Shown here piece after piece: positions 5,380 through 7,222 of a stretch of 64,000 nt of DNA. A program made the position numbers and the translations under genes. Below the pieces are notes generated by a model, which saw only the letters and a list, made by a program, of their open reading frames with translations, did not search any database and was not told the origin of the DNA. Numbering within the stretch: position 1 is the first letter of the stretch; every line of letters begins with the position of its first letter. Location: positions 243,550-307,549 of IMG/VR virus record IMGVR_UViG_3300020045_006153. The stretch is one strand, 5' to 3'. Origin of the DNA: a virus. Lineage: Duplodnaviria > Heunggongvirae > Uroviricota > Caudoviricetes.

Positions 5380-6141
5380 ATGAGAATTAATGAAATTGTT
5401 GTAGAAAGTGATGATCTATCTGAAGGACCAGGTTGGGATGCTGTTAAGGCAGGCTCTAAACAAATAGGTCAAGGTGCTGCTCAAGTAGGCAAAGGAGTAG
5501 TTCAAGGTATTCCTGGTGCTTTAGGTGGTGCTGCTTCGGGTGTTGGGGCAATTGCTGGAGGCACAGTAGGTGCTTGGAACAAGATGAAACAAGGATTTCA
5601 ATCAGGTAAATCAGCAGTAAGTGGTACACCTAATCCTAATGGGTCAGGCAGTGCCGGAACTCCTACTACAAATCAAAGAGGGCAAACCAATGCTCCACAA
5701 AGTAACGCTACTCCTGCACAAAATCCAGTTGCTATTAGATCTCAAATTAGACAGTTACAACAACAAATGACATCTTTGCAAGGGCAATTGCGTACTGCTA
5801 GTACGCCTGGTGGACAACAAACGCCGCCTGCTGCTGGAGCAAACGCAATGAATAACATGGCAGGACAATTAGCCCCTGGTGCTAATACTACTCCTTCTAA
5901 TTCAGGCGGGTCAACTACACTAGGTCAAGGGTCAACGACACATGCAGCAAATGCAACTAATCCCAATGCTCAGCAAGCCGCTGCCGGCGCTAATGCATTT
6001 GGTAATATGAGTCAAACTTTAGGTACTGGCAATGCTGCGCCTCAACAACCAGGATTCTTACAAACACGCTATAACGGAGGAAGAACTCCTACTCCGGAAA
6101 GCATTCAATATTACAGTAAGTTTCTAGGTAGAAATATTTAA
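5380..6141 (+). CDS. Low-complexity Gly/Ala/Gln/Pro-rich protein, possible internal head protein
   Basis: Late promoter plus SD; N-terminus MRINEIVVE resembles capsid-targeting/cleavage leaders; mostly disordered composition. Confidence 0.6.
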   Translation: MRINEIVVESDDLSEGPGWDAVKAGSKQIGQGAAQVGKGVVQGIPGALGGAASGVGAIAGGTVGAWNKMKQGFQSGKSAVSGTPNPNGSGSAGTPTTNQRGQTNAPQSNATPAQNPVAIRSQIRQLQQQMTSLQGQLRTASTPGGQQTPPAAGANAMNNMAGQLAPGANTTPSNSGGSTTLGQGSTTHAANATNPNAQQAAAGANAFGNMSQTLGTGNAAPQQPGFLQTRYNGGRTPTPESIQYYSKFLGRNI

Positions 6142-6344
6142 AAGAACGGAAGACCACTTGATTTTGTGGTTTCTAAGTTAGAGTCGATTAAGTTAGCAAG
6201 AATTTCTCTGTCTTCTTGATCGAGCAAATATGCTTCTTCAACGCTTAACCCGCCGCGCATATACCAGCAAAATTTAAACAGTTCTTGTTTAATGGCTTTT
6301 ATCTCTGTTTCCATGTCTTTTGTTAGCAAGTCAATTTCTTCCAT
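6138..6344 (-). CDS. Small gp51-like baseplate/tail assembly chaperone; probably made as a -1 frameshift extension of the upstream gene
   Basis: WYMRGGLSVEEAYLL...DREIL pattern typical of the small ORF following T4-like gp26; the -1 frame is open back to the slippery heptamer at 6368-6374. Confidence 0.65.
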   Translation of the reverse strand: MEEIDLLTKDMETEIKAIKQELFKFCWYMRGGLSVEEAYLLDQEDREILANLIDSNLETTKSSGLPFF

Positions 6345-6361
6345 GCTAAGAGATAAAAGCC

Positions 6362-7222
6362 TTATGCGAAAAAAGTAGAAGGATCGAATGTTAATGGAAT
6401 TTCCATTAACTCTGCAGAATGTCCTTCAGCAATCATCTCCTCTGAGGGTTGAATTTTTAAAGGTTTAACTGTATTGTTATTTCTAAGCACTTCCATGTGC
6501 TCTTTAATCTTATCAAATATTTCTTTATCTGCATCATCGAGAAACTCTTTAATAAACATCCTATCTTCTGTGGAACCAGCAACAGAGTCTATTTTAAAAA
6601 TAGCATTATGAATTAATCCTATTGTAAGATCATTTAATTTATTGAATGTTTCTTTGAAAGTTCTATTTTTATCTTCGTCACTAATGCTAGGATCATTGGC
6701 AATTTGTAAAATACGTTGTGTTTCAAATGCTTGTAAAGAACTTTCTGATAGTTGTTTGTATGTAATAGGTCTAACATACGCTACTAGTTCAGGATTAATA
6801 TCAACTCTTGATTCCCATTTAATTTGTTCATGCAATTGCGCCATAAGATACCGTAAATCTAAATCATACTTTAACTCAGATCCAGGAATTGGTACTTCCA
6901 TTTTCTCACCATACGTTGCGATTCTAATTGCAATTAGAATTATATCAAGATCGATGTTAGGCATAGACCATGCATTTTTAATGTTAGGAACACAATGTTG
7001 AATTACTTCAACAATTGCTTGGCCGTTGATCAACGCATCTGGTATTTTTAACATCAACTCATCCTTAGCAGTCATTGAGTAAACTGGATAGTCTCCTGTT
7101 TCTGTAGGGATAATAGCGCCTGGTGCCCAATATTCACCATTAGATGGTAGTTTAATGTAGATCTTTGGCTGTCTCATTAAACTTGCTAACGGATTTTGTT
7201 TGGTTTTAGGTTGCTGAATCAT
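6362..7222 (-). CDS. gp26: Baseplate hub assembly protein / tail assembly chaperone (T4 gp26-like)
   Basis: PKIYIKLPSNG, MTAKDELML, IDLDIILIAIRIATYGE, C-terminal FDPSTFFA; divergent from the tape measure gene. Confidence 0.75.
   Translation of the reverse strand: MIQQPKTKQNPLASLMRQPKIYIKLPSNGEYWAPGAIIPTETGDYPVYSMTAKDELMLKIPDALINGQAIVEVIQHCVPNIKNAWSMPNIDLDIILIAIRIATYGEKMEVPIPGSELKYDLDLRYLMAQLHEQIKWESRVDINPELVAYVRPITYKQLSESSLQAFETQRILQIANDPSISDEDKNRTFKETFNKLNDLTIGLIHNAIFKIDSVAGSTEDRMFIKEFLDDADKEIFDKIKEHMEVLRNNNTVKPLKIQPSEEMIAEGHSAELMEIPLTFDPSTFFA

What the first reader, a model, noticed from the sequence alone, without database searches (positions are those of the whole stretch)
6138..6376. 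Programmed -1 frameshift joining gp26-like and gp51-like ORFs (lambda G/GT logic in a T4-like phage)
Seen on the - strand: ...ACT TTT TTC GCA TAA. The heptamer T TTT TTC (6374-6368) fits X XXY YYZ one codon before the stop. The -1 frame reads FFRIRLLSLS-MEEID... with no stop into ORF 6344-6138, whose ATG has only a poorly spaced SD. Established: tail assembly chaperones next to tape measure genes use such frameshifts. Inference: the pair is a tail assembly chaperone made in short and long forms, here transcribed divergently from the tape measure gene.
Basis: partly seen in the sequence, partly recalled or inferred. Interest (0 to 1): 0.75.

Follow-up and report, generated by a model that had tools for sequence, protein, structure and literature searches.

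The report
Frameshift in baseplate-hub chaperone gene
One tail-assembly gene of this 353-kb freshwater giant T4-related phage very probably makes a 286-residue and a 361-residue protein, because some ribosomes slip back one base on an invariant TTTTTTC followed by a conserved RNA hairpin; phage T4 encodes the same two forms as two separate genes (26 and 51).

Summary
On the - strand, a 286-aa PF12322 (T4 gp26/gp51 family) gene ends ACT TTT TTC GCA TAA. The heptamer T TTT TTC (6374-6368) is in X XXY YYZ register, and the -1 frame runs open for 76 codons through the 68-aa ORF.

In one genome the heptamer is no rarer than chance. Its conservation is not chance:
- It is invariant in 181 of 182 related loci: freshwater and RaK2-type giant phages, and T4-like cyanophages.
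- It goes against the local Phe codon bias.
- The -1 frame is always open, with start codons scattered or missing.

A 12-13 bp stem starts 6 nt after the heptamer and shows compensatory changes.

Natural in-frame hub+extension proteins exist. T4 gp51 is one: it aligns colinearly with the cyanophage frameshift products (98% probability). T4 has two PF12322 genes; this phage, a cyanophage, RaK2, Atu_ph07 and PA5oct each have one.

The N-terminal domain's best solved-structure matches are tail assembly chaperones, but the scores are moderate.

I conclude that this is a lambda G/GT-style -1 frameshift in a T4-type hub chaperone. I found no published report. The scan has already noted the same signal on other DNA: 210 notes in at least 185 genomes. 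No experiment has been done.

The parts
6362..7222 (-). 0-frame gene for the short form: 286 aa, PF12322 T4_baseplate (gp26/gp51 family), stop codon included.
   Evidence: PF12322 E 7e-8 at 32.8 bits (cut-off 24.5); phrog_150 E 6e-11. It is the only PF12322 gene in the 99%-complete genome.
6368..6374 (-). Slippery heptamer U UUU UUC in X XXY YYZ register (codons ACU UUU UUC).
   Evidence: It is invariant in 92 + 8 + 1 + 80 relatives; RsoM2USA has T TTT TTT instead. It goes against codon bias: TTC makes up 17% of Phe codons elsewhere in these genes.
6362..6367 (-). 6-nt spacer GCAUAA, which holds the 0-frame stop UAA (6364-6362).
   Evidence: The stop lies exactly one codon after the heptamer in 83 of 91 giant-phage loci and in 80 of 80 cyanophage-type loci.
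6294..6361 (-). Downstream stem-loop. The outer stem pairs 6361-6349 with 6306-6294; the inner stem pairs 6348-6344 with 6328-6324. The ATG of the small ORF (6344) lies inside the helix.
   Evidence: MFE -21.9 kcal/mol, z -4.6, 0 of 200 shuffles as good; 12 pairs, 80.5% of cells paired against 32-50% when slid, and 102 double-change cells against 40.7 +/- 4.9 in shuffles (0 of 500).
6138..6368 (-). -1 frame extension: 76 codons (RIRLLSLSMEE...GLPFF) plus the stop at 6140-6138. The long form is residues 1-285 plus these 76, giving 361 aa.
   Evidence: The length (76 aa) and the register of the W[YF]MRG motif (index 34) are fixed in relatives. AF2 gives pLDDT about 94, with a helix spanning the junction.
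6138..6344 (-). The 68-aa ORF as a gene caller would list it. It is probably not an independent gene.
   Evidence: It has no Pfam or PHROG family. In relatives the first ATG lies anywhere from extension codon 1 to 37.
7295..10000 (+). Context: a divergent 901-aa virion protein, a candidate tape measure, with a lysozyme-like region at about residues 609-784. The portal gene follows it.
   Evidence: The synteny is kept in Phosso, BF, 121Q, CBB and RaK2. The RaK2 note reads 'similar to ... tail tape measure protein'. The orthologue was detected in CBB and PA5oct virions.

Best explanation
The gene at 7222-6362 (- strand) is a T4 gp26/gp51-family (PF12322) baseplate-hub assembly gene that is decoded in two ways.

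Most ribosomes stop at UAA 6364-6362 and make the 286-aa short form. A fraction pause with two tRNA-Phe on U UUU UUC (6374-6368), held up by the stem-loop that starts 6 nt downstream. They slip back one base and continue in the -1 frame for 76 codons. The result is a 361-aa long form with a small helical C-terminal domain.

The two forms share the N-terminal domain, which looks like a tail assembly chaperone. They are predicted to act together in hub and tape-measure assembly, as lambda gpG and gpGT do. Phage T4 makes the equivalent short and long proteins from two paralogous genes, 26 and 51.

Shown here: the signal, its conservation, the RNA stem with covariation, and the homology relations. 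Inferred: that slippage actually occurs, its efficiency, and the chaperone role.
For: 1. Slippery site.
- T TTT TTC is in register and followed by G in 91 of 91 giant-phage loci, plus L019 read by eye.
- It is also present in CBB, PA5oct, RaK2, GAP32, XbC2, Vibrio 2.275.O, SCTP-2 and Munch, in cyanophage S-RIM8 and in 80 of 80 cyanophage-type loci.
- These hub proteins are only 26-62% identical to the window's.
- Elsewhere in the same genes Phe is TTT 759 times and TTC 157 times. Other FF pairs are TTT-TTC in only 1 of 15 cases. Codons of the xxY type end in T 62% of the time.
- T4 gp26 keeps the FF motif but encodes it as G TTC TTT, which is not slippery.

2. The -1 frame.
- It is open in every locus. 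The extension is 76 aa, with the conserved motif at a fixed index.
- The first ATG falls anywhere from codon 1 to 37, and at codon 32 or later in 33 of 91 loci.
- 23 of 91 loci have no ATG, GTG or TTG before codon 12.
- RaK2 and PA5oct records do not annotate the extension at all. Atu_ph07 starts it at an internal Met.

3. RNA.
- In the window a stem begins 6 nt after the heptamer: -21.9 kcal/mol, z -4.6.
- Across 84 sequences, 9 of 12 pairs show compensatory changes. For example, pair 21-77 is GC 49, AU 19, CG 3, and pair 22-76 is UA 29, AU 25.
- There are 102 double-change cells against 40.7 +/- 4.9 in shuffles and about 27 when the partner is slid.

4. The fused reading exists in nature.
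- P0124 is a 352-aa natural hub+extension protein.
- 17 of the best 150 representative clusters hit by the extension profile are proteins of 319-351 aa, with the extension at the C-terminus behind ...F-R-x-K/R-L/I-I/L....

5. Relation to T4.
- Both gp26 and gp51 carry a full PF12322 domain. gp51 has an extra tail that matches phrog_634, the family of the cyanophage extension.
- Cyanophage frameshift products against the gp51 family: probability 98%, E 2.5e-13, colinear through the junction. Extension against tail alone: E 4.8e-9.
- Giant-phage products against cyanophage products: E 1.8e-11, colinear to the end.
- PF12322 copies per genome: T4 has 2; the window genome, S-RIM8, RaK2, Atu_ph07 and PA5oct have 1 each.

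6. Chaperone reading.
- The N-domain model (pLDDT 87) has as best PDB matches YqbN 3klu (Z 6.1, 90 aligned residues, rmsd 7.4), HK97 tail assembly chaperone 2ob9 (Z 5.8, 78 aligned residues, rmsd 3.5) and 3fgx (Z 4.8). The next match scores Z 3.4.
- Foldseek also ranks 2ob9 and 3klu first.
- The T4 review PMC3004832 tabulates gp26 and gp51 as hub assembly chaperones.
Against: - There is no experimental evidence: no protein, ribosome-profiling or reporter data for any member.
- The host is unknown, so the efficiency of U UUU UUC cannot be judged.
- In 19 of 91 loci an ATG sits at extension codon 1, and in 41 a TTG sits at codon 4. Independent initiation is therefore possible in some genomes.
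- Part of the apparent conservation of extension residues 1-5 could come from the RNA stem rather than from the protein.
- RNAalifold on all 84 sequences returned no consensus. Subgroups use another 3' partner, and in cyanophages the downstream structure is less uniform (mean z -1.4).
- The fold matches to tail assembly chaperones are below Z 8, and the Foldseek E-values are about 1-3.
- The gene is divergent from the candidate tape measure, not between the tube and tape-measure genes.
- The same T4 review notes genetic studies that place gp26 in the hub itself.
- The window's extension shows no significant similarity to the T4 gp51 tail on its own.
Confidence: 0.85

Rival explanations
1. Two ordinary neighbouring genes. 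The small ORF is started on its own, by coupling or re-initiation after the hub stop. The T-run is kept only because the protein needs ...FF near its C-terminus.
For: - The window has an ATG at 6344, and an AAGG lies upstream.
- 19 of 91 relatives have an ATGA-type overlap start at extension codon 1, and 41 of 91 have a TTG at codon 4.
- T4 gp26 also ends ...EFFELL, so FF is a protein motif.
Against: - The start position is not conserved: it ranges from codon 1 to 37, and 33 of 91 loci have no ATG before codon 32.
- The linker nevertheless never gains or loses a codon.
- The codon choice xxT TTT TTC G is invariant against an 83:17 TTT bias, whereas T4 uses TTC TTT.
- The window's ATG and its AAGG are buried in a stem of -21.9 kcal/mol.
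- Natural proteins carry the hub and the extension as one chain in the predicted register.
Confidence: 0.05
2. The long form is real, but it arises from RNA polymerase slippage on the T run, which changes the mRNA length, rather than from ribosomal slippage.
For: Homopolymer runs can give transcriptional slippage. RsoM2USA has a longer T run (T TTT TTT T...).
Against: - The run is only six T, and an invariant C caps it at six in 181 of 182 loci.
- A covarying RNA stem sits at the canonical 6-nt spacing, which is what a ribosomal pause element looks like. It has no obvious role in polymerase slippage.
- No RNA data could be obtained to test this directly.
Confidence: 0.06
3. The frameshift is real, but the two proteins are structural parts of the baseplate hub and not lambda-type assembly chaperones. 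In that case the resemblance to G/GT is only in the decoding trick.
For: - Databases name the family 'baseplate hub subunit'.
- PMC3004832 cites genetic work that places gp26 in the T4 hub.
- The CBB record calls the orthologue a 'structural protein'.
- The fold match to tail assembly chaperones is only Z about 6.
Against: - The same review tabulates gp26 and gp51 under chaperones and says gp51 is absent from the particle.
- The orthologue is missing from the CBB virion mass-spectrometry table, and the PA5oct record does not flag it as detected. The neighbouring 700-900 aa protein is detected in both.
- The three best PDB matches of the N-domain are all phage tail-chaperone-type proteins, or proteins ranked next to them.
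Confidence: 0.25

Closest known systems
Lambda gpG/gpGT and the conserved -1 frameshift of tail assembly chaperone genes in long-tailed phages (Xu, Hendrix & Duda 2004, Mol Cell 16:11). The paper is cited from my own knowledge and from the reference list seen; it is not held in the library.
   Same: - One gene gives a short and a C-terminally extended long protein through a -1 slip on an X XXY YYZ heptamer near the end of the short frame.
- The gene lies next to the candidate tape-measure gene.
- The shared N-domain resembles the solved HK97 gp10 chaperone (Z 5.8).
   Different: - The protein family differs: PF12322, 286 aa, about twice the size of gpG.
- The gene is divergent from, not directly upstream of, the candidate tape measure.
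- The heptamer is U UUU UUC, with a strong covarying stem-loop 6 nt downstream. From memory, lambda uses G GGA AAG without a known stimulator.
- Binding to the tape measure and the tube is untested.
Phage T4 gp26 (208 aa) and gp51 (249 aa), baseplate hub assembly chaperones (Leiman et al. 2010, PMC3004832).
   Same: - The Pfam domain is the same (PF12322).
- gp26 ends just after the FF motif, like the short form.
- gp51 carries a C-terminal tail that continues ...[11 protein letters not shown]..., like the frameshift products, and is homologous to the cyanophage extension.
   Different: - T4 uses two separate, divergently placed genes and has no slippery heptamer (FF is TTC TTT).
- In T4 the gene after 26 is 25.
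- T4 also makes an internal-start product, 26'.
- The window's extension is too diverged to match the T4 gp51 tail directly.
Cyanophage 'gp26 baseplate hub assembly chaperone' plus the small 'gp51 baseplate hub assembly catalyst' ORF, for example in S-RIM8.
   Same: - The heptamer+G is identical and the stop lies one codon later.
- The small ORF is in the -1 frame, and its annotated start is an internal Met.
- There is one PF12322 gene per genome.
   Different: - The extension is shorter (59-69 aa) and belongs to another sequence family (phrog_634).
- The gene sits directly upstream of a long ORF rather than divergent from it.
- The downstream RNA structure is less uniform.
Phage P2 E/E+E' tail chaperone frameshift (T TTT TTG). 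This is from memory and was not checked here.
   Same: It is a contractile-tail phage that uses a -1 slip on a U-rich heptamer in a tail-assembly gene next to the tape measure.
   Different: The proteins are small (about 90 and 140 aa) and of an unrelated family. No homology was tested here.

Membership tests
PF12322 T4_baseplate (T4 gp26/gp51 family) | A match to the Pfam model above its gathering score. | tested here: met
   32.8 bits against a cut-off of 24.5, residues 61-245; the same result by six-frame search. Relatives score up to E 1e-76.
Programmed -1 ribosomal frameshift site | An X XXY YYZ heptamer in the 0 frame, conserved beyond what the amino-acid sequence requires. | tested here: met
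   The heptamer is invariant in 181 of 182 loci, against an 83:17 TTT:TTC usage.
Programmed -1 ribosomal frameshift site | A stimulatory RNA structure 5-9 nt downstream, supported by covariation. | tested here: met
   the stem starts 6 nt after the heptamer, z -4.6; 9 of 12 pairs carry compensatory changes, and 0 of 500 shuffles reach the observed covariation. This holds for the freshwater giant-phage clade; other clades use other partners.
Programmed -1 ribosomal frameshift site | An open -1 frame that encodes a conserved polypeptide lacking its own conserved start. | tested here: met
   the frame is open in all loci and start positions are scattered; called ORFs begin at profile positions 1 to 37.
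Programmed -1 ribosomal frameshift site | Detection of the trans-frame protein and a measured efficiency. | not testable with these tools
   No proteomic or reporter data are available, and no RNA run was listed.
Lambda-type tail assembly chaperone (G/GT) | Two products that share an N-terminus, made through a -1 frameshift. | tested here: met
   Predicted from the signal as above; not shown at the protein level.
Lambda-type tail assembly chaperone (G/GT) | Chaperone fold of the shared domain. | tested here: inconclusive
   3klu at Z 6.1, 2ob9 (HK97 chaperone) at Z 5.8 and 3fgx at Z 4.8 are the top three of 48,161 chains. All are below Z 8, and Foldseek gives E about 1-3.
Lambda-type tail assembly chaperone (G/GT) | The gene lies between the tail tube gene and the tape-measure gene, on the same strand. 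| tested here: not met
   the gene is divergent from the 901-aa candidate tape measure, and no tube gene is adjacent. PF06841 found nothing in the genome. In cyanophage S-RIM8 the gene does lie directly upstream of a long ORF.
Lambda-type tail assembly chaperone (G/GT) | Binds the tape measure and tube proteins and is absent from the mature virion. | not tested
   There is only indirect evidence. The orthologue is not in the CBB virion mass-spectrometry table and is not flagged in the PA5oct record.
T4 gp51-type long form (PF12322 plus C-terminal tail, phrog_634) | The C-terminal extension is homologous to the gp51 tail. | tested here: inconclusive
   The window-clade extension against the cyanophage extension gives E 6.6e-4, probability 27%; against the gp51 tail the result is not significant. 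Whole products align colinearly with cyanophage products (E 1.8e-11). The cyanophage extension against the gp51 tail gives E 4.8e-9.

The most novel reading that the evidence does not exclude
The -1 frameshift is the ancestral way in which the whole T4 superfamily (cyanophages, RaK2-type and other giant phages) makes a short and a long hub and tape-measure chaperone from one PF12322 gene. The T-even lineage replaced it by duplication into genes 26 (short) and 51 (in-frame long). On this reading T4, long treated as the exception to the universal tail-chaperone frameshift, follows the rule, and the long-obscure 'catalytic' gp51 is the GT-like partner of gp26.
Probability: 0.6. Interest if true: 0.8.

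Novelty: new variant of a known kind. Interest (0 to 1): 0.72.

Why it matters
Tail-chaperone frameshifts are a textbook conserved feature of long-tailed phages, and T4-type phages have been the notable gap. The roles of T4 gp26 and gp51 have stayed unclear for decades. Three consequences follow if the finding holds:
- A strictly conserved slip site in their one-gene counterparts gives a concrete and testable model: a short and a long chaperone in a fixed ratio.
- It explains why gp26 and gp51 are paralogues.
- It corrects the annotation of hundreds of phage genomes. The small 'gp51' or 'hypothetical' ORFs, or the missing ORFs in RaK2 and PA5oct, are really the C-terminal domain of a trans-frame protein.

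The covarying stem also provides a clean natural series for studying -1 frameshift stimulators in bacteria.

Tried and rejected
- **blastn of the locus against phage records:** no match.
- **phrog_1749 'tail assembly chaperone':** it hit P0001 at E 0.014, but only 1 of 9 family members shows the hit. I dropped it as chance.
- **RNAalifold on all 84 junctions:** no consensus. I named the stem by eye and then tested it.
- **Foldseek of the full-length model and of the N-domain against PDB:** nothing at E <= 0.001.
- **Profile searches of PDB sequences with the hub and the extension:** nothing meaningful.
- **Extension profile against single T4 proteins:** gp51, gp26 and gp28 gave no credible hit. 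The weak match at gp51 residues 38-64 is taken as spurious.
- **Extension profile against the single S-RIM8 extension:** no hit. Only profile against profile gave E 6.6e-4.
- **The 901-aa neighbour against T4 gp29 by BLASTP:** not significant. Pfam found nothing for it.
- **Search for a tail tube gene (PF06841) in the genome:** nothing found, and the control genomes did not match either. I therefore did not run a complex prediction of the extension with the tube protein.
- **Xu et al. 2004:** not held in the library.
- **Ten full-text literature searches:** no report of this frameshift. Subscription journals are not covered.
- **One script call gave no answer:** it was repeated.
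Full report
**What is in the window**

On the - strand an ORF runs from 7222 to 6362 (286 aa, P0001). It ends GAT CCT TCT ACT TTT TTC GCA TAA.
- The heptamer T TTT TTC occupies 6374-6368 in X XXY YYZ register.
- The stop is at 6364-6362.
- The -1 frame from C6368 reads RIRLLSLSMEEID... for 76 codons, to a stop at 6140-6138. It passes through the ATG (6344) of the 68-aa ORF.

P0001 matches Pfam PF12322 T4_baseplate above the family cut-off, and also phrog_150. The small ORF matches no family.

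Around it lie gp55, gp47 and gp46 homologues, a divergent 901-aa protein with a lysozyme-like stretch, and the portal gene. The genome is a 353-kb, 99%-complete virus record. The closest cultured relatives are giant myoviruses: Phosso, Atu_ph07, and the RaK2/121Q/GAP32/CBB/PA5oct group, at 26-34% identity.

**Is it more than chance?**

In this genome alone it is not. TTTTTTC occurs 19 times in the window against 27 expected. The case rests on comparison with other genomes.

I collected 92 giant-phage loci: 4 GenBank records and 88 IMG/VR contigs, with 86 distinct hub sequences. I later added 9 more cultured giant phages, one cyanophage and 80 cyanophage-type contigs.
- In all 92 giant-phage loci the heptamer is T TTT TTC in frame and the next base is G.
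- The codon before it always ends in T.
- The -1 frame is open, and the extension is 76 aa in nearly all of them.
- The W[YF]MRG motif sits at a fixed index, so the linker never gains or loses a codon.
- CBB, PA5oct, RaK2, GAP32, XbC2, Vibrio 2.275.O, SCTP-2 and Munch show the same pattern. RsoM2USA has T TTT TTT.

Elsewhere in these hub genes Phe is TTT 759 times and TTC 157 times. Other FF pairs are TTT-TTC in only 1 of 15 cases. The invariant TTT-TTC therefore runs against the codon bias.

T4 gp26 shares the C-terminal ...FF... motif but writes it G TTC TTT. Three other T-even-type gp26 genes have no heptamer, and gene 25 follows them.

**No conserved start**

- The first ATG in the -1 frame lies anywhere from extension codon 1 to 37, and at codon 32 or later in 33 of 91 loci.
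- 23 of 91 loci have no ATG, GTG or TTG before codon 12.
- Gene callers accordingly start the small ORF at profile positions 1 to 37.
- In RaK2 and PA5oct they do not call it at all. In Atu_ph07 they start it at an internal Met.

**RNA element**

In the window the six bases after the heptamer (GCAUAA, which include the stop) are unpaired. A helix then pairs 6361-6349 with 6306-6294 and 6348-6344 with 6328-6324. Its energy is -21.9 kcal/mol, z is -4.6, and 0 of 200 shuffles fold as well. The small ORF's ATG and the only SD-like AAGG lie inside this helix.

Across 84 aligned junctions (A3) I tested the 12-bp outer stem:
- 80.5% of cells are paired, against 32-50% when the 3' partner is slid.
- 9 of 12 pairs carry compensatory changes.
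- There are 102 double-change cells, against 40.7 +/- 4.9 in shuffles (0 of 500 reach the observed value).

The pairing forces correlated amino-acid changes at extension positions 5-6 and 22-24, which points to a constraint at the RNA level.

Some sub-clades (GGAUC...GAUCC) use a nearer 3' partner but keep the same 5' start. RNAalifold on the whole set gave no consensus. In cyanophages the downstream structure is less uniform.

**The fused reading exists as real protein**

- A search with the extension for longer proteins found P0124 (352 aa): PF12322 plus the extension, with junction ...FDPSFIFRMRLL....
- An exhaustive profile search found 485 representative clusters. Of the best 150, 17 are proteins of 319-351 aa that carry the extension at their C-terminus behind ...F-R-x-K/R-L/I-I/L-...-EE-I.
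- An AlphaFold model of P0124, made with hub and extension alignments, gives pLDDT about 94 for residues 272-347. One helix spans the junction. The N-terminal domain is confident; the middle of the protein is poorly predicted.

**Relation to T4**

T4 gene 26 is followed by gene 25, and gene 51 lies divergent. Read literally against T4, then, 'gp51-like' looked wrong, and the extension profile did not match T4 gp51, gp26 or gp28.

The cyanophage S-RIM8 changed this reading. Its gp26 ends GCT AGT TTT TTC GGA TAG. Its annotated 45-aa 'gp51 baseplate hub assembly catalyst' begins at an internal Met of a 64-aa -1 extension. All 80 of 80 cyanophage-type loci have the heptamer, with the stop exactly one codon later.

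- That extension belongs to phrog_634 (E 9e-30).
- T4 gp51 is a full PF12322 domain (residues 1-201) plus a tail that matches phrog_634 (E 1e-23).
- T4 gp26 is the PF12322 domain alone.

Local hhalign comparisons:

| Comparison | Result |
|---|---|
| Cyanophage conceptual frameshift products vs the gp51 family | probability 98%, E 2.5e-13, 241 columns, colinear through the junction (..LASFF-RIGLLHTNLRAYYEGNF.. with ..[21 protein letters not shown]..) |
| Cyanophage extension alone vs gp51 tail alone | E 4.8e-9 |
| Giant-phage products vs cyanophage products | E 1.8e-11, colinear to the C-terminus |
| Giant-phage extension alone vs cyanophage extension alone | E 6.6e-4 |
| RaK2-type extension vs window-clade extension | E 4e-23 |

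T4 has two PF12322 genes. The window genome, S-RIM8, RaK2, Atu_ph07 and PA5oct have one each.

The simplest reading is that one gene plus a frameshift corresponds to T4 genes 26 plus 51.

**Chaperone reading**

A model of residues 1-105 (pLDDT 87) was compared with 48,161 PDB representatives. Only 17 chains reach Z 2. The top three are YqbN 3klu (Z 6.1, 90 aligned residues, rmsd 7.4), the HK97 tail assembly chaperone 2ob9 (Z 5.8, rmsd 3.5, 78 residues) and 3fgx (Z 4.8). The next chain scores 3.4. Foldseek ranks 2ob9 and 3klu first, but at E about 1-3. BFVD returns gp26-type proteins first, with a few proteins named tail assembly chaperone in the weak tail of the list.

The T4 tail review lists gp26 and gp51 as hub assembly chaperones and says gp51 is not in the particle. 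It also cites genetic work that places gp26 in the hub.

The orthologue is absent from the CBB virion mass-spectrometry table and is not flagged in the PA5oct record. The neighbouring 700-900 aa protein is detected in both. RaK2's annotators noted tape-measure similarity for that neighbour.

These points favour the G/GT analogy but do not prove it. The gene order also differs from lambda's.

**Mechanism proposed**

tRNA-Phe in the P and A sites on UUU UUC re-pair with UUU UUU after a one-base backward slip. The slip is promoted by the helix at the mRNA entrance, 6 nt downstream, and perhaps by the nearby stop. Non-shifted ribosomes terminate one codon later.
- Shown: the signal, its conservation and the covariation.
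- Inferred: that slippage occurs, and the ratio of the two forms.

Polymerase slippage on six T is a minor alternative. Independent initiation may add some free extension in genomes that have an ATG at codon 1.

**Novelty and earlier notes**

Ten full-text searches found no report of this frameshift. The library lacks most subscription journals.

After reaching the reading above, I looked up the scan's own notes. 210 notes in at least 185 genomes describe the same gp26/gp51 frameshift, and the follow-ups agree. This window is therefore one more member, here from the freshwater giant-phage clade. It has a particularly clear covarying stimulator stem.

Noticed in passing
L098 (RaK2) 1631-1849; L097 (PA5oct) 1652-1876; L002 (Atu_ph07) 3819-4055: The GenBank records of RaK2 and PA5oct do not annotate the -1 extension at all. 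Atu_ph07 annotates only a 40-aa ORF that starts at the Met inside the WYMRGG motif. These annotations miss the trans-frame product.
   Followed up: yes
window 6362-6376 and 6138-6152 (- strand): Both predicted forms end in a di-phenylalanine: the short form ends ...PSTFFA and the long form ends ...GLPFF. T4 gp26 ends ...KEFFELL. This may be a C-terminal docking motif that the frameshift moves 76 residues further out.
   Followed up: no
P0148-P0253: A diverged metagenomic clade encodes hub+extension in frame (319-351 aa, junction ..NFRxK[LI][IL]..EE.I). These proteins carry CxxC...CxxC zinc-ribbon motifs, which the window's protein lacks. I did not check whether those phages also have a short paralogue, as T4 does.
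   Followed up: partly
L102 (RsoM2USA) about 1968: This is the one relative with T TTT TTT and a longer T run in place of T TTT TTC. It has an 82-aa extension. Transcriptional slippage is a more serious option there.
   Followed up: no
L097 (PA5oct) 1652; 13 of 80 loci among L109-L188: The base after the heptamer is A or T instead of G, so the first trans-frame residue is Gln or Leu instead of Arg. The G is invariant only in the giant-phage set.
   Followed up: partly
window 7295-10000 (+): The 901-aa divergent neighbour has Gly/Ala-rich hydrophobic stretches and a lysozyme-like region at about residues 609-784 (phrog_90, phrog_430). It has no Pfam hit and no BLASTP similarity to T4 gp29. It is a likely tape measure with a lytic domain, but this is unproven.
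   Followed up: partly
window 7219-7407 (-): A 62-aa ORF overlaps the hub start by ATGA and runs antisense over the 5' end of the 901-aa gene. It has no family hit and is probably not a gene.
   Followed up: no
L015 (T4) 2303-2590: T4 annotates an internal-start product 26' (the C-terminal 95 aa of gp26). T4 therefore also makes two proteins from gene 26, by a different route. The hub profile aligned oddly to this second half of gp26, which may hint at an internal repeat.
   Followed up: no
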